Source: Acidimicrobiia bacterium (lineage in GTDB: Bacteria > Actinomycetota > Acidimicrobiia > IMCC26256 > DASPTH01). Taken from it: a stretch of 29,177 bases of DNA. How positions within the stretch are numbered: the stretch's first letter is position 1; every line of letters starts with the position of its first letter. Shown piece by piece: positions 2,826-26,235 of the stretch. Position numbers and translations under genes: made by a program. The stretch spans positions 1-29,177 of the forward strand of contig DASUMF010000438.1 in the NCBI GenBank assembly GCA_036277835.1. The letters are read 5' to 3'. The notes under the pieces were generated by a model. It had not been told where the DNA came from, ran no database searches, and saw only the letters and a program-made list of their open reading frames with translations.

Positions 2826-2889
2826 CGACCCGGCGGTAACTTTTCGCTGGTCGCGAGCGACCACTCCCCACATCCGAAATCGGACATCC

Positions 2890-2913
2890 GCGCGCGCCCG
2901 CTCGGGCGCGCGC
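2890..2913. terminator. Perfect 10-bp GC hairpin between the STAS and ycnI genes
   Basis: GCGCGCGCCC-GCTC-GGGCGCGCGC; no U-tract, so the terminator role is uncertain. Confidence 0.45.
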
Positions 2914-2941
2914 CCCGTCGAGCAGGGGAGCAGCGAGCACG

Positions 2942-3502: not shown

Positions 3503-3527
3503 CGGAGACGGCCTGGCATCTAGGCGA

Positions 3528-3533
3528 TACGTT
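3528..3533 (+). promoter_or_regulatory. -10 hexamer TACGTT, leaderless-type, for epoxide hydrolase 1
   Basis: TANNNT exactly 6 nt before ATG 3540; no clear SD. Confidence 0.55.
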
Positions 3534-3539
3534 GCCGCG

Positions 3540-4679: not shown

Positions 4680-4688
4680 GCGCACCGG

Positions 4689-5918
4689 TCAGGCGGTGAC
4701 CTTCTCCAGGATGTGCACCGCGCACGTGGAGCCGAGGCCGATCACGTGCGTCATGCCGACCTTCGCACCCTCGATCTGACGGTCGCCGGCCTCGCCGCGG
4801 AGGTGCATCGACACCTCGACCATGTTCGCGGCGCCGGTGCACCCGATCGGGTGGCCCTTCGACACGAGGCCGCCCGACACGTTGACCGGGATCTTGCCGT
4901 CGCGGTACGGGGAGCCCTCGTCGATGAACTTGCCGGCCATGCCGGGCTCGCAGAGGCGCAGGTTGTCGTAGTGCACGAGCTCCGCGGTGGCGAAGCAGTC
5001 GTGCAGCTCCACGAGGTCGAGGTCCTGCGGGTCGACACCCGAGTCCTCGTAGGCGCGGTCGGCGGCCGTACGGGTGAGGGTGTTCACGTCGGGCGCGGAC
5101 GGCGACATGTTGTCTTCGTTGTACGGGTCGCTGTAGAGCGCCGACGCGCTGATCTTGACCGCGCGCTTGCGGACGTCGTCGGGGAGGGTCTTCAGCTTGT
5201 CGCCGCTCACCAGCACCAGCGCGGCCGCGCCGTCGCCCGTGGGACCGCACATCGGCAGCGTGTTGGGCCACGCGATGATGTCGGCCTCCATGACCTCCTC
5301 GAGTGTGAACACCCGGCGGTACTGCGCGTACGGGTTCAGCGCCGAGTGCTCGTGGCTCTTGACCGCGACCTTGGCGAACTGCTCGAAGCCGACGCCCTCG
5401 TTGTTGCGGGCGTACTCCATGCCGATCTCGGCGAACGTGCCGGGCATGGTGTTGGTGCCGAGGATGCCCTCGGTCATCACGGGCACCTTGCCGGGCTCGA
5501 ACACCTTCTTCGGCCGCTCGCCGCCCTGCGCGGCCATCCGGGCGGCCATGTCGGCCTGCCCGGGCACGGTCATGCCGCCCTTGCCCATCTTCTCGTAGCC
5601 GAGCGCGAGCCCGACGTCGGCGATCCCGGCCTTGATCTCCATGAACGGCACGCGCACCGCCATGGCGCCCGTGGCGCACGCGTTGGTGACGTTGTAGATC
5701 GGCACGCCCGGGTTGCCGAGCTCGTTGATGATGCGCTGGCCGGAGCCGTTCTCGAACAGCGAGCCGCACCCGAACACCTGCATGTCCTTCATCGACAGCT
5801 GGGCGTCGGCGAGTGCCGCGAGGATCATCTCGGTGCCCATCTGCAGCGAGGACTTCTCGGGGAAGCGGCCGAAGGGGTGCATGGCCACTCCGACGATGTA
5901 GACGTCTTGTCCGGTCAC
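4689..5918 (-). CDS. SCP2/SCPx-type thiolase (lipid-transfer protein family)
   Basis: IVGV.MHPFG, NVTNACATG (Cys), ELHDCF, SKGHPIG.TG; AGGAG RBS before GTG. Confidence 0.9.
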   Translation of the reverse strand: MTGQDVYIVGVAMHPFGRFPEKSSLQMGTEMILAALADAQLSMKDMQVFGCGSLFENGSGQRIINELGNPGVPIYNVTNACATGAMAVRVPFMEIKAGIADVGLALGYEKMGKGGMTVPGQADMAARMAAQGGERPKKVFEPGKVPVMTEGILGTNTMPGTFAEIGMEYARNNEGVGFEQFAKVAVKSHEHSALNPYAQYRRVFTLEEVMEADIIAWPNTLPMCGPTGDGAAALVLVSGDKLKTLPDDVRKRAVKISASALYSDPYNEDNMSPSAPDVNTLTRTAADRAYEDSGVDPQDLDLVELHDCFATAELVHYDNLRLCEPGMAGKFIDEGSPYRDGKIPVNVSGGLVSKGHPIGCTGAANMVEVSMHLRGEAGDRQIEGAKVGMTHVIGLGSTCAVHILEKVTA

Positions 5919-5936
5919 GGTGAGCTCCTGCTCTTC

Positions 5937-6332
5937 TCAGACGGTCTCGAAGCCGAACGCGACGGCTTCGTTGCCCTCGTCGTCGGTGTCGACGGTGTAG
6001 GTGACGAGCCGGACCGGCGCGCCCAGCTTGTTGTTCTCGAAGTTGTCGAGATCGCCGTTCACGAGGTTGGCCTTGACGTTGCCGCCCCCGTCGAAGTCGA
6101 CGATCGCAGAGATGAAGCCGTTGCCGACCGCGCCCCGCTTGACCACCGAGAACGCCCGGAGGGTTCCCTGCGTCGACAGCTTCTTGGGTGCGAACGGGCC
6201 GGGCGTGTAGCACCGACCGCACTGGATGGGAGTTCGATAGGTGAGCGCGCCGCAGTTCTGGCACTCCATGGCCTGGAGGTGCGGTTCGCCGTCATCGAGG
6301 ACGAGGTAGTTCACGATCGGGATCTTCGACAT
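5937..6332 (-). CDS. DUF35 Zn-ribbon/OB-fold acyl-CoA-binding protein
   Basis: CQNCG...CGRC zinc ribbon followed by an OB-fold (GTLRAFSVV, AIVDFDGG); ATG 6332; adjacent to the thiolase. Confidence 0.9.
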   Translation of the reverse strand: MSKIPIVNYLVLDDGEPHLQAMECQNCGALTYRTPIQCGRCYTPGPFAPKKLSTQGTLRAFSVVKRGAVGNGFISAIVDFDGGGNVKANLVNGDLDNFENNKLGAPVRLVTYTVDTDDEGNEAVAFGFETV

Positions 6333-6338
6333 GGCGAG

Positions 6339-6344
6339 AGTGTG
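6339..6344 (-). promoter_or_regulatory. -10-like hexamer CACACT, leaderless-type, for DUF35-thiolase
   Basis: CANNNT exactly 6 nt before ATG 6332; no SD. Confidence 0.45.
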
Positions 6345-6406
6345 GCACGCCGCGCTCGTGGTGCGCCGATCGGACCCGCGCGTGCGTCCGGGGTCGTGGC
6401 CGGCGA

Positions 6407-8842
6407 TCAGCCCGCGACCCCGGCCTCCCGCATCGCCGCGATGCGCTCGTCGTCGTAGCCGAGCTCGCGCAGGACCGCATCGGTCTGCGCCCCGAGCAGC
6501 GGCGCGTTCCCAGTGACGGTCTCCGACCGTGAGAACGTGACGGTCGGGGTGAGCCGCGGGTAGGTGTCGAGCATGGGGTGCGTCGCCTCCGTGACGATCC
6601 CGAGCTTCTCGCCGAGACCGCCGCCGAACCACACGACCTCCTCGACCGGGCCCGCGACGACCGCGACGCACGCGACGTCGACCTTGGTGAGCCGGCGCTC
6701 CCACTCCTCGGCGGACGCGGTCGCGAACCGCTCCAGCAGCGTGGCCGCAAGCGCGTCCTCGTCGTCGGCGAGCGCGGGGTCGAGGTCGAGCTCCGCCGCG
6801 AGTGCCTGCCACTCGTCGTCGGCGGGCGCGGCGAGGAACACCCAACCCTCGGCGGTGGGGTAGAGGCGGTAGCGCGCGCCGAGCCCGTTGAGGTCGTGGT
6901 CGGGCGTCTGGAGCTCGGGACGGCCGGAGTACTCGATCATGTCCTCGGCCAGGCAGTGGGCCATGGTCGAGAGCATCGAGGTCGTCATCTGCTGGCCTGG
7001 CGCGCCGCGACGCTTCGCGAGGATCCCGAGCAGGAGGGCCGTGCCGACGCCGAGCGCGGAGAAGCCGTCGGCCTGGCCGACCGACATCGTCGCCGCGCCG
7101 AGCCGCGCCGCGTAGAGGCGCACCTCGAGCATCGAGAGCGAGGGATCGCCCGGGACGTTCTGGCGCCCGCCGACGTTGCGGTACCCCAGCCCCGAGCCGG
7201 CGCCGATGGTGGGCGCGTAGGCGGGACGCTGCCCGAACGGCGGACCGGTGCCGTAGCCGGGCGCGTCGAGGTAGACGAGGTCGGGGTTCACCGCGAGGAG
7301 ATCGGCAGCGGTGTAACCGTGGCGCTCGGCGACGCCGGCGCGGAAGCTCTGCAGCACGACGTCGGCGCGTCGCACCAGCTCGTGGACGACCTCGCGGCCC
7401 TCCTCCGACGCGATGTCGACCGCGACGCTCTCCTTGCCCTGCAGGACCTTGATGCCACCGATCTCGGGGAACGGCATGATGTTGCGGATCGGGTCACCGT
7501 CGAGCTGCTCGACCTTGATGACGCGTGCGCCGAGGTCGGTGAGCACCGTGGCGCCGTAGGGCGCGGCGTAGTAGGTGCCGAGCTCGATGATGGTGAGGCC
7601 GGCGAGGGGCGGCGGAGTTGCTTCGTCGCCGGCGGGCGACGCGTCGGGCGATGGCGCGTCGATGGAGGCGCGGATCGCTGCTGCGTGCTCGTCGAGCGCG
7701 GGGGCGGTGGCGCCGAGCTCGGCCGGGGTCTCCGACATGAGCACGATCGGCCCCGGCTGCAGCACCGGGCCGAGGGTCGGGTCCTGGATCTCCGTGGTGC
7801 GATGGTCCTGGACCATCTGCGGGTGGTGCAGCAGCTCGGTGTGGTCGCGGAACATCTCGGCCCACACGTCGGGCTCGCGCTCGAACTCCTGCAGCCACTC
7901 CGCGTAGGTCTTCGACCGGGTGATCTCGAGTGCCTTCTCGGTCCACTTGATCATCCCGCCCGGGTCGTCCTCGGAGGTCGACCCGAGGAACTCGGGGTCC
8001 TCGGAGAGCTTGTCGAGCCCGGTGAGACGGAGGAACGCCTGCCACAGGCGCTCGGCCATCTGCGAGAACTGCATGTACTGGCCGTCCTTGGTGAAGCCGA
8101 CCATCAAGCGGAGGTGGATGGGCGAGGCGATCACCGCGGTCGCGGGCGCGTCGGCGGTCGCGCTGGTGGTGCTCGTCGGCGCAGCCGGGGTGAACGCGTC
8201 GGCGTAGCGCGTGGTGAGCAACCGGATCAGCCAGTTCCACGGGTCGTGCGCGATGACGCCCTGCACGAGCGACGTCTCGACCCACTGCCCCGTGCCGGTG
8301 CTCTCACGGTCGACGAGCGCGGCGAGGATGCCGTGGAGGCCGAGCTGGCTCGCGCTGAAGGTGCAGTACGGCGACGCGACGTAGCACGGACCAGGGCGCG
8401 TCGACAGCGCCGAGAACGCGTCGAGCGCGCCGATCTTGGCCATCACGATCGGCTCGTACGCCTTGAGGTGCGACAGCTCGTTGTCGCGTCCGAACCCGGT
8501 GATCGACGCGTAGACCAGGCGTGGGTTGCGGGCCGAGAGCGTGTCGTAGTCGAGGCCGAAGCGCGCCGCGACGCCGGGGCGCCAGGTGTCGACCACGACG
8601 TCGGCTGCGGCGGCGAGCCCCTGGGCGACCTCGAGGTCGGCGGGATCGTTCAGATCCAGCTCGATGCTCCGCTTGCCACGCGCCCAGAACGGCCACGCCG
8701 GCTCCCGGCGGAGCGGGTTGCCGCCCGGTCGTTCGATCATGACCACGTCGCAGCCGAAGTCGGCCAACGTCTGCGTGACGTGGGCGCCCGTCTGCGTGCT
8801 GGTCAGGTCGACGACGGTCAAGCCTGCAAGCGGTCCGGCCAT
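6407..8842 (-). CDS. Fused double-domain class III (CaiB/BaiF) CoA-transferase
   Basis: Two repeats of PLAGLT.V/I.L...LADFG/LTDLGA.V(I/V)..E, RGK/QGK.S, DVV...R.GVA.R.G; GGAGGGAG RBS before ATG 8842. Confidence 0.9.
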   Translation of the reverse strand: MAGPLAGLTVVDLTSTQTGAHVTQTLADFGCDVVMIERPGGNPLRREPAWPFWARGKRSIELDLNDPADLEVAQGLAAAADVVVDTWRPGVAARFGLDYDTLSARNPRLVYASITGFGRDNELSHLKAYEPIVMAKIGALDAFSALSTRPGPCYVASPYCTFSASQLGLHGILAALVDRESTGTGQWVETSLVQGVIAHDPWNWLIRLLTTRYADAFTPAAPTSTTSATADAPATAVIASPIHLRLMVGFTKDGQYMQFSQMAERLWQAFLRLTGLDKLSEDPEFLGSTSEDDPGGMIKWTEKALEITRSKTYAEWLQEFEREPDVWAEMFRDHTELLHHPQMVQDHRTTEIQDPTLGPVLQPGPIVLMSETPAELGATAPALDEHAAAIRASIDAPSPDASPAGDEATPPPLAGLTIIELGTYYAAPYGATVLTDLGARVIKVEQLDGDPIRNIMPFPEIGGIKVLQGKESVAVDIASEEGREVVHELVRRADVVLQSFRAGVAERHGYTAADLLAVNPDLVYLDAPGYGTGPPFGQRPAYAPTIGAGSGLGYRNVGGRQNVPGDPSLSMLEVRLYAARLGAATMSVGQADGFSALGVGTALLLGILAKRRGAPGQQMTTSMLSTMAHCLAEDMIEYSGRPELQTPDHDLNGLGARYRLYPTAEGWVFLAAPADDEWQALAAELDLDPALADDEDALAATLLERFATASAEEWERRLTKVDVACVAVVAGPVEEVVWFGGGLGEKLGIVTEATHPMLDTYPRLTPTVTFSRSETVTGNAPLLGAQTDAVLRELGYDDERIAAMREAGVAG

Positions 8843-8920
8843 GGTGCTCCCTCCGAGGTGTCCGAGCCGCCCATGTCTAGCGCAGGAGCGTGGCACCTGT
8901 GACAGGGTGCAGTATCGCCG

Positions 8921-11074
8921 CTACTTGATCAGGGGGTCGCGCGGGAGGCCGAGGATCCGCTCGCCGATCTGGTTGCGCGTGATCTCCGACGTGCCACCGG
9001 CGATCGAGAGCGCACGGGTGAAGAGCAACGCGTTCGCCACCAGCGCGCCCGAGCCCTCCAGCACCACGGTGTCGGGACCGAGCAGCGCGAGCCCGAGGTC
9101 GGCCGACCACTGGGCCTGCTCCGCGCTCAGCAGCTTGGTGACGTTGCCTTCGGGCCCCGGCTCGGCGTTCGCGACCGCACGTTCGACGCGACGGAGGTTG
9201 AGCGCCCGCATCGCGGAGCCCTGCGCGACGAACCGGCCGACCTCGGCGGCGAGCGCGGCGGGGCGACCCTGCGCGCCGAACAGCTCGACGACGGGCACAC
9301 CGAACCCGCTGCCACCGCCGCCGATGCTGACGCGCTCGTTGCCGAGCGTCGCGCGAGCGACGGTCCAGCCGTCGTTGATCTGGCCCACGACGTCGTCGTC
9401 GGGGACGAACACCTTGTCGAAGAACACCTCGTTGAACATGGCGGCGCCGGTCGCTTCGCGCAGCGGCCGGACCTCCACGCCGTCGGCGTGCATGTCGATG
9501 ACCATCGTCGTGATCCCGGCGTGCTTCGGGACGTCGGGATCGGTGCGGACGGTCGCGAGGCCGTGCGTGCAGAACTGCGCGCCGCTCGTCCACACCTTCT
9601 GGCCGGTGACCTCCCAGCCGCCGTCGACGCGCACGCCCTTGGTGCGGATCCCGGCCGCGTCGGAGCCCGCGTCGGGCTCGCTGAACAGCTGGCACCAGTT
9701 GAGCTCGCGCTCGAGCGTCGGACGGATCCACCGCGCGATCTGGTCTTCGCTGGCGTGCGAGAGCATGGTGAGCATGATCCAGCCCGTGATGCCGTAGTTC
9801 ACGGGTTGCAGTCCGGCGGCGCCGAACTCGGCTTCGATCACGAGCTGCTCGAGCGCCTTCGCTTCGCGGCCCCACGGCTTGGGCCAGTGCGGCTGCACGT
9901 AGCCGGTGTCGATGAGACGGGTGAGCTGCTCGGCGCCCTCGAGCGCCGCGATCTCCTGGGCCGCGACGCGGGTGGCGTCGCGGTACTCCTCGGCCTCCGG
10001 GGGAAGGGTGAAGTCGAGGTCGCGCGTGACGCCGTCGACCGCGTGCCCGGCGACCGCGGCCGCCGCGGCGCGCGCGTCGACCAGCGCGGCGAGCGTCGAG
10101 GCGCGACGCAGGATGAGGTGGCCGTCGTGCTCCCACGTGAACCCGATGCCGCCGTGGATCTGGATGTTGAGCTGGGCGTTCTTCAGGTACGCGGGGACGG
10201 CGAGGCTCGCGGCGGTCGCGCACGCGAGCGAGAACTGGTCGGCGGGGCCGTCGGCCGAACGAGCGGCGTCCCACACCGCCGCCGTCGCGAGCTCCGCCGC
10301 GACGAGCATGTTGGCGCAGTGGTGCTTCACGGCCTGGTACATGCCGATCGGGCGGCCGAACTGCTCGCGCTCCTTCGCGTACGCGCTGCTCGCGTCGACG
10401 CAGTCCTGCGCGCCACCGGCGGCCTCGGCCGCCGTGAGCAGGAGGGTGAGGTCGCGGGCGACGGCCGCCGCGCCCGTGAGCACGCGCGAGTCGTCGACCG
10501 CCACCTCGTGCAGCGTGACCTTCGCGGCCCGACGGGTCGGGTCGAGGTTCGTGGGTACGTTCACGTCGACGCCGGGCGTGCTCGCGTCGAGCACGACGAC
10601 GTCGTCGCCGACCGGCACCAGGAGCACGTCGGCGAGACCGCCACCGAGCACCAGGCCGGCGTCACCGGACACGGTGCTGCCGCTGCGAGCGGCCGCGCCG
10701 GCGGTTGCGAGCGCACCGGCGCGCGAGCCGTCGGCGAGCCCGGGCAGCAGCGCCGCCTGCTGGGCGTCGGTGCCGCACCGCGCGATCACCGCGGAGGACA
10801 GCACCGTGGGCAGGAACGGTCCGGGTGCCGTGGCACGCCCGAGCTCCTCGAGCACCACCACGAGCTCCGCGAGGCCGTACCCGGACCCTCCGTGCTGCTC
10901 GGGGAGGTGCAGGCCGAGCCAGCCGAGCGCCGCGAGCTCGTCCCAGAACGGCGGACGGGCCTCGTCGGGGCTCTCGAGCAGGTCGCGCGCCGCGGCGCGG
11001 GCCTTGTTGGCATCGAGGAACGAGCGCGCGACGTCGGCCAGCTCGCGGTGGGTATCGGTGATCGCAATCGACAT
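8921..11074 (-). CDS. Fused double-domain acyl-CoA dehydrogenase (FadE22/FadE34-like architecture)
   Basis: N-half LPEQHGGSG...LEELGR..APGP, RxQFGRPIG.YQAVKH; C-half WCQLFSEPDAGSD, GQKVWTS, FNEVFFD, LGNER, IAGGTSEI..N.IGERILGLP. Confidence 0.92.
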   Translation of the reverse strand: MSIAITDTHRELADVARSFLDANKARAAARDLLESPDEARPPFWDELAALGWLGLHLPEQHGGSGYGLAELVVVLEELGRATAPGPFLPTVLSSAVIARCGTDAQQAALLPGLADGSRAGALATAGAAARSGSTVSGDAGLVLGGGLADVLLVPVGDDVVVLDASTPGVDVNVPTNLDPTRRAAKVTLHEVAVDDSRVLTGAAAVARDLTLLLTAAEAAGGAQDCVDASSAYAKEREQFGRPIGMYQAVKHHCANMLVAAELATAAVWDAARSADGPADQFSLACATAASLAVPAYLKNAQLNIQIHGGIGFTWEHDGHLILRRASTLAALVDARAAAAAVAGHAVDGVTRDLDFTLPPEAEEYRDATRVAAQEIAALEGAEQLTRLIDTGYVQPHWPKPWGREAKALEQLVIEAEFGAAGLQPVNYGITGWIMLTMLSHASEDQIARWIRPTLERELNWCQLFSEPDAGSDAAGIRTKGVRVDGGWEVTGQKVWTSGAQFCTHGLATVRTDPDVPKHAGITTMVIDMHADGVEVRPLREATGAAMFNEVFFDKVFVPDDDVVGQINDGWTVARATLGNERVSIGGGGSGFGVPVVELFGAQGRPAALAAEVGRFVAQGSAMRALNLRRVERAVANAEPGPEGNVTKLLSAEQAQWSADLGLALLGPDTVVLEGSGALVANALLFTRALSIAGGTSEITRNQIGERILGLPRDPLIK

Positions 11075-11080
11075 GCCGAC

Positions 11081-11086
11081 AGACTC
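11081..11086 (-). promoter_or_regulatory. -10-like hexamer GAGTCT, leaderless-type, for the acyl-CoA dehydrogenase
   Basis: NANNNT exactly 6 nt before ATG 11074; no SD. Confidence 0.35.
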
Positions 11087-11140
11087 ACCGCTGCGCGCTG
11101 CGATGTCCAACCGGCCCGGTCGGGATCGGGTCGGCCCGCC

Positions 11141-12043
11141 CTACGCGGTCGGCTGCTCCGGCGGCTCCGGCGGCTTCATCCCCGGAAACTCCATGCCCGG
11201 TGGGAGGCGCAGCTCACGCCACAGGTGCTCCTGGGCGATGCTCGCGACGAGGGTTCCGCTCGAGTCGTACACCGAGCCGGTGTAGTAGCCGCGCCCGCGA
11301 GCCAGGCGGACCGCAGCGAGGTCGAACAGCACCCAGTCGTCGAGGCGGACGTCGGGGTCGTGGAACCAGACGGCGTGGTCGAGGCTCGGGCCGCCCATGG
11401 GCGTGTCGCGGGTGGGCAGCTCGTAGAAGCCGGTGCCGACGTCGGAGAGGAAGGTGAGCACGCACTGGTGCACGAGCGCGTCGTCGGGGAGCGGCGCGCG
11501 CGTGCGCGCCCAGTAGCGGTTGAGGCGCCGGTTGCCGTCGGACTGGTTGGGTGCAGGCACGGTCCGGAGGTCGAACATCGGGCCGAAGCCGAAGAACTCG
11601 CCCTCGCTGAGGTCCTCGGGAAGGGGCACGTCGGGGAGCGCAGGCACCTGCAGGTCGTCGCCGGACTCGTCGACGTGGAACGACGCGAGCATGCTGAAGA
11701 TCGCGTCGCCGTTCTGGCGTGCGACCACGTGGCGCGCGCTGAACGAGCGGCCGTCGCGGTCGCGGTCGACGTGCAGGATCGTCGGGCGATCGGGGCTTCC
11801 GGGGCGCAGGAAGTAGCCGTGCAGTGAGTGGAGCATCCGACCCTCGGGTGCGGTGAGGTTCGCCGCGCGCACGGCCTGGGCCGCGACCTGCCCGCCGAAC
11901 AGCCGGAAGCGCTGCGAGTCGGCCGGGTTCGTCGCCCGGTAGAGGTCGCGATCGATCTCCTCGAGCTCGAGCAGTGCGACGAGGTGGTCGACGTCGCGAG
12001 GACTCGCCTCGGCCGGTGTGGGATGCGCGAACGCGTCGGTCAT
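11141..12043 (-). CDS. tesB: Acyl-CoA thioesterase II (double hot-dog)
   Basis: LFGGQVAAQA, HSLHGYFLRPG, ASFH, FLSD, SLDHAVWFH, IAQE motifs. Confidence 0.9.
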   Translation of the reverse strand: MTDAFAHPTPAEASPRDVDHLVALLELEEIDRDLYRATNPADSQRFRLFGGQVAAQAVRAANLTAPEGRMLHSLHGYFLRPGSPDRPTILHVDRDRDGRSFSARHVVARQNGDAIFSMLASFHVDESGDDLQVPALPDVPLPEDLSEGEFFGFGPMFDLRTVPAPNQSDGNRRLNRYWARTRAPLPDDALVHQCVLTFLSDVGTGFYELPTRDTPMGGPSLDHAVWFHDPDVRLDDWVLFDLAAVRLARGRGYYTGSVYDSSGTLVASIAQEHLWRELRLPPGMEFPGMKPPEPPEQPTA

Positions 12044-19503: not shown

Positions 19504-20541
19504 TCACGCTCGTGAACGCGCCACCATCGCAGGGAGATCGGCGAGCTCGCGCAGCTCGTTGGTGAGGTGGGTGCAGCTCTCGATGCCGAGCAGCGTGCGT
19601 TGCACGGTGGCGCGGAGGTCCTCGACCCGGTGCCCCGCGAGCTTGCCGACCGCGTCGGCGGCCGCCGGGCACTCGCGCCACGGGAGCGCGTGCGGGATCG
19701 CGCGCACGTCGAGCAACGTGTGGGTGGCGGGGTCGACCGTGGCCTCGACGGTGTACTCGTGCAGGGAGCCGAGCGTGCCGTCGGGTGCGCAGTAGGTGTC
19801 GCGGAACCACGCGTCGACGTGCCACGCGTCGGGGCCGGGGAGCACGTCGATGCGGCGGTGTCGCCGCAGGCCAGGCGAGGGGATCGGCGCGCTCGGCCAC
19901 CCGTCGCTGCCGTCGGGGAGCAGCGCGACGGCGGGGATCGGGTGGAAGCGCATCGGCTCGCCGGCGCGGATCATCACCATCATCGTGCCGTCGGAGCGCC
20001 ATCCCGAGCAGAGGTCGGCCTGGCCGCGCTGCAGCGCGTCCGCGGCGTCGACGGGTGAGACCTCGGGCGGAGGCGGCGCGGCGGCGACCATCGCGGCCGC
20101 TTCGTCCGCGTCGAGCGGTTCGGTGCTCATCCGGAGCGCCGTCACGTAGCTGGCCGCGACCATCGCGCCCGAGATGTCGTCGAGGAGCAACCCGACGTTC
20201 GACCCGTCAGGCGTGAAGTGGCTCCGGCTGAGGGCACGGAAGCCCTGGCGCAACGGGTGTCCGACGAACGCCGCGGGATCGAACGGTGCACCGTCCAGCG
20301 CGAACTCGGTGATGAGCCCCGCCGCTGTGACGACGTGCATGGTGGTCTCGTCGTCGACGCGCACCGAGCCGTCGGGCAACGAGGTCTCGTCGCGCGCCGC
20401 GCCGCGCACCACGACGTCGATGGCGTCGACCCAGTCGTAGTCGAGGTGCATCACGCGCCGCACCGACCCGGGCACGCGCGTCGGGAACGAGCGCCGCGGA
20501 TCCTCGGGACGCGTCATCGGCGTCACGCCGGCTGCGCTCAC
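19504..20541 (-). CDS. DUF2889-domain protein
   Basis: C-half RRHRRIDV, DAWFRD, HEY.V.A.VD, LPWRECP.A, G.ESCTHL; N-half LLLDD.SGA and DLCSGW; GTG 20541 overlaps the ECH stop (GTGA). Confidence 0.75.
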   Translation of the reverse strand: MSAAGVTPMTRPEDPRRSFPTRVPGSVRRVMHLDYDWVDAIDVVVRGAARDETSLPDGSVRVDDETTMHVVTAAGLITEFALDGAPFDPAAFVGHPLRQGFRALSRSHFTPDGSNVGLLLDDISGAMVAASYVTALRMSTEPLDADEAAAMVAAAPPPPEVSPVDAADALQRGQADLCSGWRSDGTMMVMIRAGEPMRFHPIPAVALLPDGSDGWPSAPIPSPGLRRHRRIDVLPGPDAWHVDAWFRDTYCAPDGTLGSLHEYTVEATVDPATHTLLDVRAIPHALPWRECPAAADAVGKLAGHRVEDLRATVQRTLLGIESCTHLTNELRELADLPAMVARSRA

Positions 20542-21296
20542 TTGCCGGTCCACTGCGGCGGTCGTCGCTCGGCGAACGCGGCGGCGCCTTCACGCGCGTC
20601 GTCGCTCGCGAACACCGGCGACGCCTTCGACCGGATGGCGCGCCACTCGTCGGCGTCGTGCATCCCCGCCTCGTCCCAGAGGAGCTGCTTGGTCATGTGC
20701 AGCGCGAGCGGTGCGTTGGCGGTGATGCGATCGGCGAGAGCGAGCGCGGCGTCGAGGACCTCGTCGCCCGGCACGACCTGGTTCACGAGACCGAGCTCGA
20801 GCGCGCGGGTCGAGGAGAACGCGTCGCCCACGCAGCAGAGCTCGAACACGATCGCGGGTGGGAGCCGTGCGGCCAGGCGGGTCGTGCAGCCCGCACCGAC
20901 GAGGCCCCGCTTCACCTCGGGGACCGAGAACGTGGCGTGCTCGGCCGCGACGACCATGTCGGAGGCCAACATGAGCTCCAGGCCCCCACCCACCGCGGCG
21001 CCGTTCACCGCCGCGATGACGGGCTTCGGGTAGCAGCGGGTGGTGAACACCTCGATGCCCGGCATGCCCGGAGGGGTGACGCGTTCGTCGCCGACCGCCT
21101 TGAGGTCGGCTCCGGCGCAGAACACGTCGCTGCCCGCACCGGTGAGGACGACGGCGCGCACCGCCGGGTCGTGCTCGGCGTCGGTGAACGCCGTGCCGAT
21201 GCCGCCGAGCGTCGCGCCGTCGAGTGCGTTGCGGCGCTCGGGTCGGTCGATCTGCACGACGACCGTGCTGCCGTGGGTCGACACGTTGACGGGCAC
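20538..21296 (-). CDS. Enoyl-CoA hydratase/isomerase (crotonase)
   Basis: DRPERRNAL, FCAGADL, KPVIAAVNG.AVGGGLE, PEVKRG (both catalytic Glu present), DAREGAAAF.ERR.P; GGAG RBS. Confidence 0.93.
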   Translation of the reverse strand: MPVNVSTHGSTVVVQIDRPERRNALDGATLGGIGTAFTDAEHDPAVRAVVLTGAGSDVFCAGADLKAVGDERVTPPGMPGIEVFTTRCYPKPVIAAVNGAAVGGGLELMLASDMVVAAEHATFSVPEVKRGLVGAGCTTRLAARLPPAIVFELCCVGDAFSSTRALELGLVNQVVPGDEVLDAALALADRITANAPLALHMTKQLLWDEAGMHDADEWRAIRSKASPVFASDDAREGAAAFAERRPPQWTGK

Positions 21297-21307: not shown

Positions 21308-21343
21308 CATGTCTTCAGGCATGTCTTCAGGCATGTCTTCAGG
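21308..21343. repeat. Perfect 12-bp tandem triplication next to the ECH RBS
   Basis: CATGTCTTCAGG x3 (21308-21319, 21320-21331, 21332-21343). Confidence 0.95.
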
Positions 21344-21425
21344 GTCGCTCACTTCGCAGTCTGGTCCGTGTCCGTCGGTGCCACCAACGCATCGACCCCG
21401 TCGTGGCCCGACGCGGCCACGACCG

Positions 21426-21455
21426 TTGAGAAGTTTGGCTCCGTCGAACTACGCT
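21426..21455 (+). promoter_or_regulatory. Promoter TTGAGA-N18-TACGCT with candidate TetR operator O1 (21432-21450) in the spacer
   Basis: AGTTTGGCTCCGTCGAACT, 15/19 identical to the palindrome at 23156-23174. Confidence 0.65.
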
Positions 21456-21485
21456 CCCGCGCTGCCGGCGACCAGGGAGTGTGCC

Positions 21486-22400
21486 ATGCAGCTCGGGGTC
21501 TTCTTCCCGACCAAGGAGTACGGGACCATCGACGAGATGGTCTCCCGGTTCCGATCGACCGCGGGGATGGGGTTCGACTCGCTGTGGATGCCCCAGAGCG
21601 CGGGCTTCGACGCGCTCACCGCGATCGCCGTCGCGGCACGCGAGGTGCCCGAGGTCGCCTTCGGCACCTCGGTCATCCCCACCTACCCCCGCCACCCGGT
21701 CGCGCTCGCAGCCCAGGCGCTCACGGCCAACGCGGCCGCGGGTGGACGCCTGGTGCTCGGCCTGGGCCTGTCGCACAAGATGGCAATCGAAGGCTCGTAC
21801 GGCATCTCCTACGACCAGCCGGCGCGCCACATGCGCGAGTACCTCGCAGCGCTGATGCCGCTGTTGGTCGATCGGGCCGTCAACGTCGAGGGCGAGACCA
21901 TCACCGCTCGGTCGCAGCTCGCCATCCCCGGGGCGGACGCGCCGCCGGTGCTCCTCGCCGCGCTCCAGCCGCGGATGCTCGCGCTCGCCGGGGGCGTCGC
22001 GAACGGCACCGTCACGTGGTGCACGGGACCGATCACGCTGGCCGAGCAGATCGTGCCGCTGGTGAACGCAGCGGCGGCAGACGCCGGCCGGCCCGCGCCG
22101 CGCATCGTGGTGCCGCTGCCGACGATCGTCACCGACGACGAGGCGTACGGTCGCGCCCAGGCCGACAGCCAGCTCGAGGGCTACGGCCGGATCCCGGTGT
22201 ACCGCGCGGTGCTCGACCGCGAAGGCGTCGAGGGCCCGGGTGACGTGTCGATCGTGGGTGACGAGGCGTCGGTGACGGCGCAGCTCACGCGCCTGGCGGA
22301 GATCGGCGCCACCGACTTCGTGGCCATCCCGAGCGGCAACGACGACGACCGCACACGCACCCTCGAGCACCTGTCGTCGGCGCGCTCCGCGCTCCGCTGA
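21486..22400 (+). CDS. LLM-class oxidoreductase, F420-dependent type (TIGR03564-like)
   Basis: GF.SLW.PQ...DALT, GTSVIPTYPRHP.ALA.QALT, GRLVLGLGLSH, AAL.PRMLALAG...GT.TW; AGGGAG RBS before ATG 21486. Confidence 0.85.
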   Translation: MQLGVFFPTKEYGTIDEMVSRFRSTAGMGFDSLWMPQSAGFDALTAIAVAAREVPEVAFGTSVIPTYPRHPVALAAQALTANAAAGGRLVLGLGLSHKMAIEGSYGISYDQPARHMREYLAALMPLLVDRAVNVEGETITARSQLAIPGADAPPVLLAALQPRMLALAGGVANGTVTWCTGPITLAEQIVPLVNAAAADAGRPAPRIVVPLPTIVTDDEAYGRAQADSQLEGYGRIPVYRAVLDREGVEGPGDVSIVGDEASVTAQLTRLAEIGATDFVAIPSGNDDDRTRTLEHLSSARSALR

Positions 22401-22421
22401 CCGGCGTGCGGAGCGTCCGGT

Positions 22422-22441
22422 CGTTGGACCGCGCCTAAACT
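22422..22441 (+). promoter_or_regulatory. Candidate autoregulatory operator O2 overlapping the leaderless -10 TAAACT (22436-22441) of tetR
   Basis: Reverse complement GTTTAGGCGCGGTCCAACG is 13/19 identical to O3; the -10 lies 6 nt before ATG 22448. Confidence 0.5.
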
Positions 22442-22447
22442 TCGTCG

Positions 22448-23161
22448 ATGCCCCGATCTGGCGAGCCAGGGCCGTCCGCGGAGCGCAGGGAGAACGGTCC
22501 GCGCCGCTCGGGTCTTGTGCAGGAGCGGTCGCGACGCACCCGGCGCGATCTCGTCGATGCCGCGATGCGGCTGTGGACCGAGCGTGGGTTCGAGACGGGG
22601 ATCGACGACACGACGGTGGAGGAGATCGCCCGCGAAGCCGGCGTCACGAAGGGGACCTTCTACTTCCACTTCGCCCACAAGGAAGACATCCTCCTCGAGA
22701 TCGGGTGGTTCACCTCGCAGGCGACGCTGCGCGACGCCACCGCCGCGCTCGCCGGCGACGCGCCGGTCGACGCGGTGCTCGACACCCTGCTCACAGGGCT
22801 GGCTCGGCGGATCTCCGAGACCCCGCGCGCTGCGGTCGGCCGCACCCTCGCCGAGTTCTACCGGAACACCGCCCGTCGCGACACCGAGCCTGGCGAGGAG
22901 CGCTACGGGTTCCAGCGGTCGTTCGCGCTGGTGTTCTTCCACGCCCAGCAGTCGGGCCACCTCCCCGACGCGACCGACGCCCGGGTGTTGGGCGAGGTGA
23001 TGGGCACCATGACGGTCGGCGCGATCTCGTCGTGGATCGCAGGCGTCGAGCCCGATCTCGCCGCGGCGTTCCGGCTGCGGGCCGCGCTGCTCCTCGCCGG
23101 GATCCGGGGCCTGGGTGAGGCGAGCGCCTGCCTGGTTGATCCTGCGTCTGCATTCAGTTAG
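22448..23161 (+). CDS. TetR/AcrR family transcriptional regulator
   Basis: RSRRTRRDLVDAA..L..ERGF...TTVEEIAREAGVTKGTFYFHFAHKEDIL helix-turn-helix. Confidence 0.93.
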   Translation: MPRSGEPGPSAERRENGPRRSGLVQERSRRTRRDLVDAAMRLWTERGFETGIDDTTVEEIAREAGVTKGTFYFHFAHKEDILLEIGWFTSQATLRDATAALAGDAPVDAVLDTLLTGLARRISETPRAAVGRTLAEFYRNTARRDTEPGEERYGFQRSFALVFFHAQQSGHLPDATDARVLGEVMGTMTVGAISSWIAGVEPDLAAAFRLRAALLLAGIRGLGEASACLVDPASAFS

Positions 23162-23174
23162 ACTCAGTCCAACT
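23136..23174 (+). promoter_or_regulatory. Promoter TTGATC-N17-TAGACT with candidate operator O3 (23156-23174)
   Basis: AGTTAGACTCAGTCCAACT, 8 of 9 positions self-complementary, covering the -10 and predicted start site of the amidohydrolase transcript. Confidence 0.7.
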
Positions 23175-23240: not shown

Positions 23241-24533
23241 ATGACCGCGACCCAGTCCAGCGAGCAGTCGGCCAACGCCCTGCCGTACCCCATCAACGAC
23301 GCCGACGAGCACTCGACGCCCGCCCGTGGCGCCTACGAGAAGTACATCGACCCCGACAAGCGCGACATGGCCATCCGCTACGTCACCACCGACAGCGGGT
23401 TCCCGCAGGCGCTCTACAACGGTCGCCCGGCGCGGTTCACGTTCAAGAACTTCCAGGTGGTGGGCTCGAACGACCAGCTCGCCGAGGTCGGCGTGTCCGA
23501 CGCGGGCGGCTCCGAGGAGATGGGTGGCGCGCCGGTGCCGGGGTCGCTCCTCACCCGCCTCAACCCGCTCAAGGACCTCGACGCCGAGGGCCGCAAGGAG
23601 TTCGCGCGGAAGTACCGGGCGATGCAGGAGCAGCTCGACAACCCCGCTGACCGCCTCACCGTCATGGATTCGCAGGGCATCGGCGCCGCGGTCAACTTCG
23701 CGACGCTGCCCGGCACCGAGGTCGAGTTCGAGGACGACTACGACGGCCTCTACGCCAACCTCACCGCGCTGAACCGCTACCTCGGCAACGAGTGGGGCTT
23801 CAACTACGAGAACCGGCTCTTCACGCCCCCGTTCGTGTCGTTCGCCGACCCGGATGCCGCGCTCGCGCAGCTCGACGACATCATGAAGATCGAGGTCCCC
23901 AAGGTCATCCAGACCTCGCAGGGCCCCTCGATGCACACGTCGCCGTTCCGCCCCGAGAACGACCGGTTCTGGGACATCTGCTCCGAGGCCGGCATCAAGC
24001 TGACCACCCACCTCGCCACCGTCACCCGCTACGGCGCGCAGGGCCTCGACTGGTCCGAGGAAGAGGTGATGCTGGGCGACATGAACGCGTTCCAGTGGGT
24101 CTTCTACTACGGCGACCGTCCCGCGATGGAGACCGCCGGAGCCGCGATCCTGCAGGGCTGGTTCGCACGCTTCCCGAAGATGCAGCTCCTCCTGTCGGAG
24201 CAGGGCACGGTGTGGGTGCCCTACACGGTGCGCAAGCTCGACCACTCGTTCCTCATGGGTCGGCGCGCCAGCTTCGGTCGCAAGCTCGAGCGTCGTCCGA
24301 GCGAGTACTTCAAGGACCACGTCTTCGTGGCCCCGTTCCCCGAGGAGAACGTCGATCGGATCGTCGAGGCCGTCGGCACCAAGCCGATCGTGTTCGGCTC
24401 CGACTTCCCGCACGGTGAGGGCCTCCCCGAGCCGAGCATGTACCTCGGCCAGCTGAAGAACCTCGACGAGACCCAGACGAAGGAGATCATGAGCGACAAC
24501 CTCGCTCGCTTCCTCGACCTCCCGACGGCCTAA
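23241..24533 (+). CDS. Amidohydrolase-superfamily metallo-enzyme (Amidohydro_2 type)
   Basis: INDADEH, TTHL, RFPK....SE.G..WVP, FGSDFPHGEG, I...NLARFL; AGGAG RBS before ATG 23241. Confidence 0.9.
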   Translation: MTATQSSEQSANALPYPINDADEHSTPARGAYEKYIDPDKRDMAIRYVTTDSGFPQALYNGRPARFTFKNFQVVGSNDQLAEVGVSDAGGSEEMGGAPVPGSLLTRLNPLKDLDAEGRKEFARKYRAMQEQLDNPADRLTVMDSQGIGAAVNFATLPGTEVEFEDDYDGLYANLTALNRYLGNEWGFNYENRLFTPPFVSFADPDAALAQLDDIMKIEVPKVIQTSQGPSMHTSPFRPENDRFWDICSEAGIKLTTHLATVTRYGAQGLDWSEEEVMLGDMNAFQWVFYYGDRPAMETAGAAILQGWFARFPKMQLLLSEQGTVWVPYTVRKLDHSFLMGRRASFGRKLERRPSEYFKDHVFVAPFPEENVDRIVEAVGTKPIVFGSDFPHGEGLPEPSMYLGQLKNLDETQTKEIMSDNLARFLDLPTA

Positions 24534-24580: not shown

Positions 24581-24614
24581 CCGGCACGGGCCCGCTCTGG
24601 CGGGTGCGTGCCGG
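24581..24614 (+). terminator. Long GC hairpin after the amidohydrolase gene
   Basis: CCGGCACG-GG-CCCGC-TCTG-GCGGG-TG-CGTGCCGG followed by TT. Confidence 0.6.
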
Positions 24615-24678
24615 TTGCGCGCGACGAAGCGGTCGCCCGATGATGCGCCGCCCGAGCCACTTGCAGGAGAATCACGCC

Positions 24679-26235
24679 GTGGAGTACCCGGAGACCGCGT
24701 TCCGCCCGACCATCCCCGACGCGTTGCACCACGCGGTGGAGATCTCGGGCAGCCGCCCGTTCATCGTCACGCCCGCGCGCCGCATGACCTATGCCGAGGC
24801 CGAGGTCGCGTCGCGGCACCTGGCCAAGCGGATGCTCGCGGCCGGGATGGGCAAGGGCACCCGTGTGGGGCTCTACTTCACCTACGGCCAGGAGTGGGTC
24901 GTCGCGTGGCTGGCGGCGAGCCGCATCGGCGCGCTGGTCATGCCGCTCGCCACCACGTATCGGCCGTCGGAGATCCGCAAGGTCCTGCGCATCGGCGACG
25001 TCGACACGCTGATCATGGCGAGCACCGTGCTCGGCAAGGACATGCAGCAGATGCTCGAGGACAGCGTGCCCGGCCTCGCCGAGGCCGACGGGCCTGCGCT
25101 GTTCCTCGCCGACACGCCGTCGTTGCGCTCGGTCTGGGTGACCGGCGACGTCGATCGTGCGTGGGCGACGCCGGTCGACCTCGAGGCGGAGCCCGACCTT
25201 CCCGCCGGCATCACCGACGAGCTCCTCGCCGCGCTCGAGGCCGAGGTCGTGCCCGCCGACCTCGCGCAGGTCACCTACACGTCGGGCTCGAGCGCCGATC
25301 CCAAGGGCGTCGTGCACACGCACGCCACGGTGATCCGCGCCACCGCGGGCATGTCGGCGCTCCTGGTGCCCGGTTCCGAGCCGCCGGTGTTCTTCTGCGC
25401 CTTTCCCTTCTTCTGGATCGGCGGCACCCTCATCCTCGGCGCCGCGCTCCAGACCGGCGCCACGGTGCTCGTGATCGAGCGCTTCGAGCCCGGCGCCGCG
25501 CTGGCGATGATCGAGGAGTACCAGGCCACCTCGGTGATGGGGTGGCCGTCGCTCATCCAGGCGATGCGCGACGACCCGTCGTTCGCCACTCGCAAGCTGC
25601 CCGAGATCGCGGGGCTCACCGTCGGCCCGGCCGACGTGGCCCTCAACGCGTCCCCGGTCCCGGGGATCCCCGGCCACCGTGGCATGAGCGAGACGGTGGG
25701 CAACATCATGTCGGTGCAGCACCGGGCCATCGATCCCGAGACCGGCGAGGACCAACCCGACATGGCCGAGGGCGAGCTCCTCGTGCGCGGCTACGGCCTG
25801 ATGCACGGGTACTACAAGAAGGAGCGCCACGAGGTCTTCGACGACGACGGCTGGTTGCACACGGGCGACCGCGTGTTCATGCACGAGGGCCGGCCCTACT
25901 TCGTGGGTCGCTTCACCGAGATGGTGAAGTCCCAGGGCGCCAACGTCGCGCCGCGCGAGGTCGAGCTGTTCCTCGAGGAGACGTTCCCCGAGATCCTCTA
26001 CGCCTTCGTCGTCGGGATGCCGCATCCCGAACGCGGTGAGGAGGTCACGGCGGTGCTCGTGCCGTCACAGGGCCACACCATCGATCCCGTCGACGTGCAG
26101 CGCCGCTCGCGCGAGCTGATCTCGGGCTTCAAGGTGCCGACGCGCATCGAGATCTGGGACGAGGCCGATGTGCCGTGGCTGGGGTCGGGCAAGCCCGACA
26201 AGCTCGCGATCAAGGCGCGCCTCCTCGGCGACTGA
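24679..26235 (+). CDS. Acyl-CoA synthetase / AMP-binding (class I adenylate-forming) enzyme
   Basis: YTSGSSADPKG, GMSET, GELLVRG..LMHGYY, GWLHTGD, GRFTEMVKSQG.NV.P.EVE, GKPDK; AGGAGA RBS before GTG 24679. Confidence 0.9.
   Translation: MEYPETAFRPTIPDALHHAVEISGSRPFIVTPARRMTYAEAEVASRHLAKRMLAAGMGKGTRVGLYFTYGQEWVVAWLAASRIGALVMPLATTYRPSEIRKVLRIGDVDTLIMASTVLGKDMQQMLEDSVPGLAEADGPALFLADTPSLRSVWVTGDVDRAWATPVDLEAEPDLPAGITDELLAALEAEVVPADLAQVTYTSGSSADPKGVVHTHATVIRATAGMSALLVPGSEPPVFFCAFPFFWIGGTLILGAALQTGATVLVIERFEPGAALAMIEEYQATSVMGWPSLIQAMRDDPSFATRKLPEIAGLTVGPADVALNASPVPGIPGHRGMSETVGNIMSVQHRAIDPETGEDQPDMAEGELLVRGYGLMHGYYKKERHEVFDDDGWLHTGDRVFMHEGRPYFVGRFTEMVKSQGANVAPREVELFLEETFPEILYAFVVGMPHPERGEEVTAVLVPSQGHTIDPVDVQRRSRELISGFKVPTRIEIWDEADVPWLGSGKPDKLAIKARLLGD

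What the first reader, a model, noticed from the sequence alone, without database searches (positions are those of the whole stretch)
21426..23174. Three copies of a 19-bp palindrome, each on a predicted promoter, define a candidate TetR regulon
Seen: O3 AGTTAGACTCAGTCCAACT (23156-23174) is almost perfectly palindromic and covers the -10 of TTGATC-N17-TAGACT before the amidohydrolase. O1 AGTTTGGCTCCGTCGAACT (21432-21450, 15/19 identical) fills the spacer of TTGAGA-N18-TACGCT before the F420-type LLM gene. O2 (22422-22440, 13/19 on the reverse strand) overlaps the -10 of tetR itself. Shared core: TTnGRCnCnGTCnAAC. Established: TetR repressors bind such palindromes over promoters and usually autoregulate. 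Inference: this TetR co-represses the F420 oxidoreductase, itself and amidohydrolase(-acyl-CoA synthetase), which links three genes of unknown substrate into one pathway. The motif does not resemble the KstR or KstR2 consensus.
Basis: partly seen in the sequence, partly recalled or inferred. Interest (0 to 1): 0.75.

Follow-up and report, generated by a model that had tools for sequence, protein, structure and literature searches.

The report
FadR-type TetR repressor and its operators
The three palindromes are real and are most likely operators of an ordinary TetR-family repressor of the Thermus FadR (acyl-CoA-sensing) type, which controls an amidohydrolase/CoA-ligase operon and an F420-oxidoreductase/tetR operon in an uncultured soil Acidimicrobiia bacterium.

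Summary
All three sites, their coordinates, the identity counts and the hexamer spacings are correct.

The sites differ greatly in strength. I scored them with a matrix built only from distant genomes.
- O3 (23156-23174) is the best 19-mer in the whole 2.7-Mb genome.
- O1 is in the top 10.
- O2 is weak (top 92) and occurs in only 2 of 4 close relatives.

An O3-type palindrome (consensus AGTTGTACTCAGTACAACT) lies upstream of the orthologous amidohydrolase in 22 of 33 Acidimicrobiia loci, and also upstream of distant Amidohydro_2 paralogs. It travels with orthologs of this TetR.

- The inner 15 nt of O3 match its experimentally determined consensus TTRNACYNRGTNYAA perfectly.
- The predicted structure of this TetR has FadR as its nearest solved neighbour (Z 19, next 15.2).

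Best reading: a local FadR-type repressor, probably released by an acyl-CoA made by the co-regulated CoA ligase. It autoregulates through O1 (LLM-tetR operon), with O2 as a lineage-specific extra. A wider regulon is not supported statistically.

This is a new member of a known kind, of modest interest. No binding, transcription start or ligand has been measured. The earlier notes of this scan that I looked up hold nothing on this feature.

The parts
21426..21431 (+). Putative -35 (TTGAGA) of the LLM promoter; not conserved in relatives
   Evidence: Sequence. The alignments show other bases here in G001 and L029.
21432..21450 (.). O1, medium-strength operator with one good arm (GTCGAACT) and one degenerate arm (AGTTTGGC)
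   Evidence: 14.8 bits with the independent matrix, top 10 in the genome. The arms are conserved in 3 close genomes, while the centre and the N position vary. It has 4 mismatches to the Thermus FadR 15-mer.
21450..21455 (+). Putative -10 (TACGCT) of the LLM-tetR operon promoter
   Evidence: Invariant in G000, G001 and L029 within a diverged intergenic region.
21486..22400 (+). F420-dependent LLM-class oxidoreductase (TIGR03564 family)
   Evidence: Pfam PF00296. NCBIfam TIGR03564 at 329 bits, cut-off 234. The genome encodes CofE for F420 biosynthesis. Orthologs in other genera sit next to the CoA-ligase ortholog.
22422..22440 (.). O2, weak, lineage-specific candidate operator overlapping a TAAACT -10 (22436-22441) for a probably leaderless tetR transcript
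   Evidence: 6.7 bits, 92 genome positions score as high. It has 2 mismatches to the Thermus FadR 15-mer. It is present in G000 and L029 (16/19 identical) and absent in G001 and L028. No Shine-Dalgarno sequence precedes the ATG at 22448.
22448..23161 (+). tetR, a FadR-type TetR-family repressor of 237 aa
   Evidence: PF00440. AF2 model with pLDDT 88.5. Nearest solved structures are T. thermophilus FadR 3ANP/3ANG. Residues 18-30 are conserved in 34 homologs, and 22448 is the only start codon upstream of them.
23136..23141 (+). Putative -35 (TTGATC) of the amidohydrolase promoter, inside the 3' end of tetR
   Evidence: Invariant, with fixed 17-nt spacing, in 4 close genomes.
23156..23174 (.). 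O3, the strong operator; it contains the -10 TAGACT (23159-23164) and the tetR stop codon
   Evidence: Rank 1 in the genome with the independent matrix. Identical or nearly so in 4 close genomes. Homologous sites occur in 22/33 amidohydrolase loci. Its inner 15 nt match TTRNACYNRGTNYAA perfectly.
23241..24533 (+). Amidohydro_2-family enzyme of unknown substrate, the conserved target gene
   Evidence: PF04909. Nearest solved structure by sequence is 4DZI, an uncharacterised TIM-barrel hydrolase. Orthologs of 62-92% identity occur in 30 Acidimicrobiia loci.
24604..26235 (+). AMP-forming acyl-CoA synthetase, probably co-transcribed with the amidohydrolase; candidate source of the inducer
   Evidence: PF00501 and PF13193. 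It starts 70 nt after the amidohydrolase stop, and no site lies between them. The order is the same in L028.

Best explanation
The gene at 22448-23161 encodes a TetR-family repressor of the Thermus FadR type. As a dimer it binds the 19-bp palindromes.

O3 is the high-affinity operator. It covers the -10 of the promoter of the amidohydrolase-acyl-CoA synthetase operon, and that promoter lies inside the 3' end of tetR.

O1 is a weaker operator in the spacer and -10 of the promoter of the LLM-tetR operon. It gives autoregulation.

O2 is a low-affinity, lineage-specific site over a probable leaderless tetR promoter.

Repression is most likely relieved when an acyl-CoA binds the C-terminal domain. 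The probable source is the thioester made by the co-regulated CoA ligase from the pathway's acid intermediate.

Shown here: the sites, their conservation, their statistical rarity, the match to the FadR consensus, the structural neighbourhood, and the co-occurrence of motif, TetR and amidohydrolase.

Inferred: that this TetR is the binder, that binding represses, where transcription starts, and which ligand acts.
For: Site strength:
- With a matrix built from distant genomes only, O3 ranks 1, O1 is in the top 10 and O2 in the top 92 of 2.72 million positions.

Footprints:
- O3 with TTGATC-N17-TAGACT is invariant in 4 genomes whose flanks have diverged.
- The O1 arms and TACGCT are invariant in 3 genomes, while the centre triplet and the N position vary.

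Family-wide conservation:
- 22/33 amidohydrolase upstream regions carry a site of 18-30 bits. The control 99th percentile is 8.7 bits.
- 18 of these 22 sites are within 1 mismatch of the Thermus FadR consensus.
- Exact-consensus sites in other family genomes fall at the starts of distant Amidohydro_2 paralogs in 5 of 9 cases.

Link to this TetR:
- A TetR homolog lies within 3.5 kb in 10/22 loci with the motif and in 0/11 without it.
- Genus g8 has the order TetR-DUF2889-site-amidohydrolase.
- The TetRs near amidohydrolases are spread over one well-supported clade (98/95).
- The six family genomes without a TetR ortholog have no consensus site. Four of the five that I searched also have no amidohydrolase ortholog. 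The fifth, 96% complete, has four homologs and no site.

FadR type:
- The REPSA consensus is TTRNACYNRGTNYAA, with optimum TTGGACTTAGTCCAA at KD 0.17 nM. Thermus FadR sites overlap core promoters, and its own operon is a likely target, which would give autoregulation (PMC5597230).
- Thermus FadR takes the top five Foldseek places, and VIA-align gives Z 19.0 against 15.2 for the next entry.
Against: - There is no binding, expression or transcription-start data. The one RNA run gave only two contigs on the amidohydrolase 3' end.
- In many genomes with the motif the nearest TetR ortholog lies 10-85 kb away. Adjacency is therefore not required, and a paralog could be the binder.
- By sequence the HTH region resembles CprB and AcrR as much as Thermus FadR. 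Overall identity to Thermus FadR is only 24%.
- O1 has 4 mismatches to the FadR 15-mer, its -35 is not conserved, and LLM orthologs elsewhere have no site.
- O2 is absent from 2 of 4 close relatives.
- The generic promoter scan finds nothing.
Confidence: 0.62

Rival explanations
1. The palindromes are genuine operators, but a different FadR-like TetR encoded elsewhere binds them. The adjacent TetR would then have another, unseen target.
For: Sites with the motif occur upstream of amidohydrolase orthologs and paralogs in genomes where no ortholog of this TetR lies within 1.5-3.5 kb. G000 has at least one paralog of 36% identity.
Against: - The TetR is adjacent in all four close genomes, and O3 overlaps its stop codon.
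- O1 heads the operon that contains tetR.
- The phyletic pattern of motif and TetR ortholog agrees.
- No site lies near the G000 paralog.
Confidence: 0.18
2. Only O3 is a functional operator. O1 and O2 are promoter sequence or chance look-alikes, so there is no co-regulation of LLM and no autoregulation.
For: - O1 and O2 score far below O3.
- The conserved O1 block also contains the -10, which alone could explain part of its conservation.
- O2 is dispensable in relatives.
- LLM orthologs elsewhere carry no site.
Against: - About 0.001 hits of O1 strength are expected in the searched space.
- The outer AGTT/AACT arms are invariant, while the centre and the N position vary. This is the pattern expected of a dimer operator.
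- O2 is conserved 16/19 between G000 and L029 within diverged flanks.
Confidence: 0.15
3. The palindromes act as RNA hairpins, for example a tetR terminator at O3, or are chance inverted repeats.
For: O3 lies at the 3' end of tetR and can form a short stem.
Against: - The O3 hairpin has -4.5 kcal/mol and z +0.38, so it folds no better than shuffles. No T-tract follows it.
- Conservation is of sequence rather than pairing, and it holds in loci where no gene ends upstream.
- O3 ranks 1 genome-wide.
Confidence: 0.02

Closest known systems
Thermus thermophilus HB8 FadR (TTHA0101), a TetR-family acyl-CoA-responsive repressor
   Same: - It has a TetR fold and is the nearest solved structure (Z 19.0).
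- It binds a 15-bp pseudopalindrome TTRNACYNRGTNYAA, which O3 matches 15/15. O3 differs at 2 positions from the optimum TTGGACTTAGTCCAA.
- Its sites overlap core promoter elements.
- Its regulon contains CoA ligases.
- Its own operon, in which fadR is the last gene, is a likely target and would give autoregulation.
   Different: - Identity is only 24%, and the phylum differs (Deinococcota versus Actinomycetota).
- The main target here is an Amidohydro_2 enzyme plus an F420-dependent LLM, not classical fad genes.
- It appears to be a local regulator, with 0-2 consensus sites per genome in this family.
- The ligand is untested.
Bacillus subtilis / B. halodurans FadR (YsiA), a TetR-family long-chain acyl-CoA sensor
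   Same: The sequence aligns to it over its full length, and the structure is similar (1VI0, 3WHB, 5GP9). It is an acyl-CoA-released repressor of beta-oxidation genes.
   Different: Structural scores are lower (Z about 14) than for Thermus FadR. From my own knowledge, not tested here, the Bacillus FadR box is a different palindrome.
Mycobacterium tuberculosis KstR / KstR2
   Same: They are actinobacterial TetR repressors of lipid and steroid catabolic clusters with CoA-thioester ligands. KstR is among the next-best structural matches (Z 15.2).
   Different: This does not fit O1-O3, which have GAC/GTC-type arms spaced by 3 nt.
Rhodococcus erythropolis qsdR-qsdA-qsdC
   Same: The architecture is the same: a TetR repressor next to an amidohydrolase-superfamily hydrolase (a lactonase) and a fatty acyl-CoA ligase, with palindromes in the promoter region (PMC6262395).
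   Different: - QsdA is a phosphotriesterase-like lactonase, not PF04909.
- QsdR is divergently transcribed and senses the lactone ring rather than a CoA ester.
- No sequence relationship was tested here.

Membership tests
TetR family of transcriptional regulators | N-terminal TetR_N helix-turn-helix domain | tested here: met
   PF00440, E 3e-16, residues 35-85.
TetR family of transcriptional regulators | All-helical two-domain fold with about 9-10 helices | tested here: met
   The AF2 model has pLDDT 88.5 and ten helices of at least four residues between residues 22 and 226, plus a short C-terminal one. 750 TetR chains match with Z >= 8.
Thermus-type FadR (TetR-family acyl-CoA-responsive repressors) | Operator fits the experimentally derived 15-bp consensus TTRNACYNRGTNYAA | tested here: met
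   O3 has 0 mismatches, O2 has 2 and O1 has 4. 18 of 22 orthologous sites have at most 1 mismatch.
Thermus-type FadR (TetR-family acyl-CoA-responsive repressors) | Protein specifically related to T. thermophilus FadR | tested here: met
   3ANG/3ANP take the top five Foldseek places. VIA-align gives Z 19.0 against 15.2 for the next entry. Identity is only 24%, so this rests on structural rather than sequence-level kinship.
Thermus-type FadR (TetR-family acyl-CoA-responsive repressors) | DNA binding is released by medium- or long-chain acyl-CoA | not testable with these tools
   This needs EMSA or ITC with acyl-CoAs. The only support here is the structural match to the acyl-CoA-bound FadR entries and a CoA ligase in the regulated operon.
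Thermus-type FadR (TetR-family acyl-CoA-responsive repressors) | Regulon made of fatty-acid degradation genes | tested here: inconclusive
   - A CoA ligase is in the O3 operon.
- Extra candidate sites lie before a CoA ligase (C267), an enoyl-CoA hydratase (C283) and an ACAD pair (C477).
- Permuted matrices give as many intergenic hits in 5/60 trials.
- The ACAD site is not conserved in G001.
Thermus-type FadR (TetR-family acyl-CoA-responsive repressors) | Autoregulation of its own operon | tested here: inconclusive
   O1 precedes LLM-tetR. In G001 and L028 the tetR ATG overlaps the LLM stop. There is no expression data.
KstR / KstR2 steroid-catabolism repressors | Operator of the KstR (TnnAACnnGTTnnA) or KstR2 (AnCAAGnnCTTGnT) type; both consensus sequences are from my own knowledge | tested here: not met
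   O1-O3 have TTnGAC-N3-GTCnAA architecture. KstR is a weaker structural neighbour than FadR.

The most novel reading that the evidence does not exclude
The FadR-type operator and this TetR clade mark a module that is widespread in Acidimicrobiia. In that module Amidohydro_2 enzymes, both orthologs and distant paralogs, are the primary regulated targets. They work with an F420-dependent LLM oxidoreductase and a dedicated CoA ligase in an undescribed catabolic route. One speculative version is F420-linked oxidation to a lactone, ring opening, then CoA activation feeding the neighbouring beta-oxidation genes. If so, a DNA specificity first defined in Thermus has been conserved across phyla and re-used for a non-fatty-acid pathway in abundant soil Actinomycetota.
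Probability: 0.3. Interest if true: 0.5.

Novelty: new member of a known kind. Interest (0 to 1): 0.3.

Why it matters
The finding gives an uncultured soil Acidimicrobiia lineage a concrete, testable regulator-operator pair and a predicted class of inducer, acyl-CoA.

It links four genes of unknown substrate into one unit on independent grounds. These are the F420-dependent LLM, tetR, the Amidohydro_2 enzyme and the CoA ligase.
- They share operators.
- LLM and the CoA ligase are neighbours in other genera.
- The motif and the amidohydrolase co-occur.

The conserved site can serve as a marker to find the same module in other metagenomes. The repressor-operator pair could be used as a biosensor to identify the pathway's substrate.

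The mechanism itself, a TetR dimer on a palindrome over a promoter with autoregulation, is textbook.

Tried and rejected
- **RNA hairpin or terminator reading.** The folds are no better than shuffles.
- **Generic sigma-70 promoter scan.** It finds no hit. The promoters therefore rest on TANNNT-type -10 hexamers and conservation only.
- **Wider regulon in G000.** 11 hits of at least 12 bits, 9 of them intergenic. Permuted palindromic matrices reach 9 or more intergenic hits in 5/60 trials. Three hits (C267, C81, C257) belong to a separate hairpin-flanked repeat. The ACAD site (C477) overlaps the ribosome-binding site and decays in G001. The ECH site (C283) is conserved only within an intergenic region that is nearly identical anyway.
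- **Motif upstream of LLM orthologs in other genera.** None was found.
- **Motif next to more distant TetR orthologs.** Only weak sites were found, for example TATTGCACGGCGGCCAACT in the ACAD-tetR region of genus g2.
- **Metatranscriptome and metagenome read laying.** It gave no transcription-start information. Two RNA contigs fall on the amidohydrolase 3' end, and one DNA contig identical over O3 is probably the same strain.
- **Sequence-level HTH comparison.** The top phmmer hits are CprB, gamma-butyrolactone receptors and AcrR, not FadR. The FadR link therefore rests on structure and operator.
- **Residue-level comparison with Thermus FadR.** I could not obtain its sequence through the tools, so this was not done.
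- **Literature searches.** Searches for an Acidimicrobiia TetR/F420 system or for this motif in actinobacteria found nothing relevant.
- **Complex prediction.** Not used, because it gives no verdict for protein-DNA or ligand jobs.
Full report
**What is in the sequence**

The window is contig C438 of a soil Acidimicrobiia metagenome-assembled genome. The genome has 2.7 Mb in 495 contigs and is 72% complete; the window is 70% G+C.

The region reads as follows.
- enoyl-CoA hydratase, 20538-21296, minus strand
- F420-dependent LLM oxidoreductase, 21486-22400. It fits TIGR03564 above the curated cut-off, and the genome also encodes CofE.
- tetR, 22448-23161
- Amidohydro_2 enzyme, 23241-24533
- AMP-forming acyl-CoA synthetase, 24604-26235

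- O3 contains both the TAGACT hexamer and the tetR stop codon.
- The TTGATC -35 lies inside the tetR coding sequence.
- tetR must start at ATG 22448. Residues 18-30 are conserved in 34 homologs, and no other start codon lies upstream of them.
- No Shine-Dalgarno sequence precedes that ATG, and TAAACT ends 6 nt before it. In Actinobacteria this is the usual signature of a leaderless transcript (established knowledge). It is inferred here, not shown.

**Is it more than chance?**

I therefore built a matrix only from sites found upstream of the orthologous amidohydrolase in 17 distant genomes and scanned the whole genome.

| Site | Score (bits) | Genome positions scoring as high, of 2.72 million |
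|---|---|---|
| O3 | 28.2 | 1 (the single best) |
| O1 | 14.8 | 10 |
| O2 | 6.7 | 92 |

For the about 320 nt of the three intergenic regions the chance expectations are about 0.0001, 0.001 and 0.01. All three sites are thus individually unlikely by chance, but they are very unequal in strength.

**Close relatives (phylogenetic footprints)**

Three further genomes or contigs have the same LLM-tetR-amidohydrolase order, with TetR 79-80% identical: G001 (= L006/L032), L028 and L029.
- Upstream of the amidohydrolase, the flanks have diverged and carry indels. The block GGTTGATCC-N-...TCAGTTAGACT(C/G)AG(T/C)(C/G)CAACTTT is conserved with fixed 17-nt spacing, as is the ribosome-binding site and start.
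- Upstream of LLM, AAGTTTGGC-nnn-GT(C/T)GAACTACGCTCC is one of two conserved blocks. The other, at 21352-21376, is listed under things noticed in passing. The centre triplet varies (TCC, GGA, GGC), and so does the position that is N in the FadR consensus. The outer AGTT/AACT arms and TACGCT do not vary. The -35 TTGAGA is not conserved.
- O2 is present in L029 (CGTTGCACGGCGCCTAATC, 16/19 identical). The whole segment is missing in G001 and L028, where the tetR ATG overlaps the LLM stop codon (ATGA). In those genomes tetR can only be transcribed with LLM. O1 is therefore the general route to autoregulation, and O2 is an extra in some lineages.

**Family-wide conservation**

A scan of GTDB representative genomes returned 30 loci with amidohydrolase orthologs of 62-92% identity, all from Acidimicrobiia MAGs.
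- Iterative matrix refinement on the 220 nt upstream found a site of 18-30 bits in 22 of the 33 loci analysed (these 30 plus the window, L028 and L029). In 597 control windows from the same loci the 99th percentile was 8.7 bits.
- The consensus is AGTTGTACTCAGTACAACT.
- Loci without a site are mostly second and third paralogs in the same genomes. Two of them carry a different palindrome.
- Across 32 genomes of the family, exact matches to the 15-mer consensus are rare: 13 sites in all against 4 for the reversed control, or 0-2 per genome.
- Of the nine sites outside G000 and G001, five lie at the start of distant Amidohydro_2 paralogs of 24-27% identity.

The motif is therefore a specific mark of Amidohydro_2 promoters in this lineage. 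It is not a global signal.

**Which protein binds?**

- A homolog of the window TetR lies within 3.5 kb in 10 of the 22 loci with the motif and in none of the 11 without it.
- Genus g8 has the order TetR-DUF2889-site-amidohydrolase paralog.
- In a maximum-likelihood tree these TetRs form one clade (98/95) apart from paralogs. Members near amidohydrolases occur in several of its subclades, which suggests an old association.
- Six family genomes have no TetR ortholog, and none of them has a consensus site. Four of the five that I searched also lack an amidohydrolase ortholog. The fifth, 96% complete, has four homologs and no site.
- These counts are not phylogenetically independent, but they all point the same way.
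- Against this, in several genomes the nearest TetR ortholog is 10-85 kb from the site. A paralog as the binder cannot be excluded.

**What kind of TetR?**

- The inner 15 nt of O3 (TTAGACTCAGTCCAA) fit TTRNACYNRGTNYAA at every position. This is the consensus obtained by in-vitro selection (REPSA) for T. thermophilus FadR. Its optimum, TTGGACTTAGTCCAA, binds with KD 0.17 nM (PMC5597230).
- 18 of the 22 orthologous sites fit within one mismatch. O2 has 2 mismatches and O1 has 4.
- An AlphaFold2 model of the window TetR was built independently (pLDDT 88.5). Thermus FadR bound to acyl-CoA (3ANG/3ANP) takes its top five Foldseek places in the PDB. On re-alignment those entries score Z 19.0, well above the rest of the family at 15.2 or less.
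- In Thermus, FadR sites overlap core promoter elements. The regulon includes CoA ligases and acyl-CoA dehydrogenases, and its own operon (TTHA0103-TTHA0101) is a likely target, which would give autoregulation.
- By sequence alone the HTH region is as close to CprB and AcrR, and identity to FadR is only 24%. I therefore call this protein FadR-type on operator and structure, not a demonstrated ortholog.

**Mechanism proposed**

A TetR dimer occupies O3 and blocks the amidohydrolase-CoA ligase promoter. It binds O1, and O2 where present, more weakly and so limits its own synthesis and that of LLM.

The CoA ligase converts the pathway's acid to a thioester. That thioester binds the regulator and releases it.

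Two observations independently tie the enzymes together.
- LLM and the CoA-ligase ortholog are immediate neighbours in other genera.
- The window is full of beta-oxidation-type genes.

The substrate is unknown. A lactone-opening role for the amidohydrolase is speculation. It is prompted by the analogous qsdR-qsdA-qsdC arrangement in Rhodococcus and by known Amidohydro_2 lactonases (my own knowledge).

**What did not hold**

- A larger regulon in G000 is not supported.
- The palindromes are not meaningful RNA hairpins.
- No transcription-start data could be obtained.

**Verdict**

This is a new member of a known kind, a local FadR-type TetR circuit. It is useful mainly as a handle on an uncharacterised Amidohydro_2/F420/CoA-ligase module that is common in soil Acidimicrobiia.

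Noticed in passing
window 21308-21343: Perfect 12-nt tandem repeat (CATGTCTTCAGG x3) in the leader of the minus-strand enoyl-CoA hydratase gene. It lies 12-47 nt upstream of that gene's GTG start and is not present in G001.
   Followed up: partly
window 21352-21376: A second conserved block, CACTTCGCAGTCTGGTCCGTGTCC, lies in the hydratase-LLM intergenic region. It is shared by G000, G001 and L029 and is not palindromic. It may be the hydratase promoter or another regulator's site.
   Followed up: no
L063 (G000:C267) 4770-4830; L064 (G000:C81) 1190-1250; L107 (G000:C257) 60-100: A repeated element of about 70 nt. A FadR-like half-palindrome (TTGCAC..CAA) is flanked by two perfect GC-rich palindromes, AACGGTTCCGCGGAACCGTT and CGGTCCCGCGGGACCG. 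One copy precedes an acyl-CoA ligase next to a tRNA gene. There is no Rfam match.
   Followed up: partly
L033 about 3327-3345 and L045 about 3323-3341: Two amidohydrolase orthologs (82-83% identity) lack the FadR-type site. Instead they carry a different palindrome, GTGAAAA-N5-TTTTCAC, about 175 nt upstream. This suggests that the regulator was swapped.
   Followed up: no
L076-L078, L086-L088, L091: In other genera the LLM ortholog (65-77% identity) sits directly beside the ortholog of the window's acyl-CoA synthetase. The two are in tandem in genus g2 and divergent in L086-L088 (genera g5 and g8). In the window's clade tetR and the amidohydrolase lie between them.
   Followed up: partly
L028 630-700: A short tandem duplication (ATCTGATGACCGC-like units, about 3 copies) spans the LLM stop and tetR start junction in one close relative.
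   Followed up: no
L030 (G004) 1745-10693 versus window 6407-12043: The nearest TetR outside the window's clade (71% identity) sits among a fused-domain ACAD, an acyl-CoA thioesterase, class III CoA-transferases and DUF2889. The window carries the same gene families 10-16 kb upstream of tetR.
   Followed up: partly
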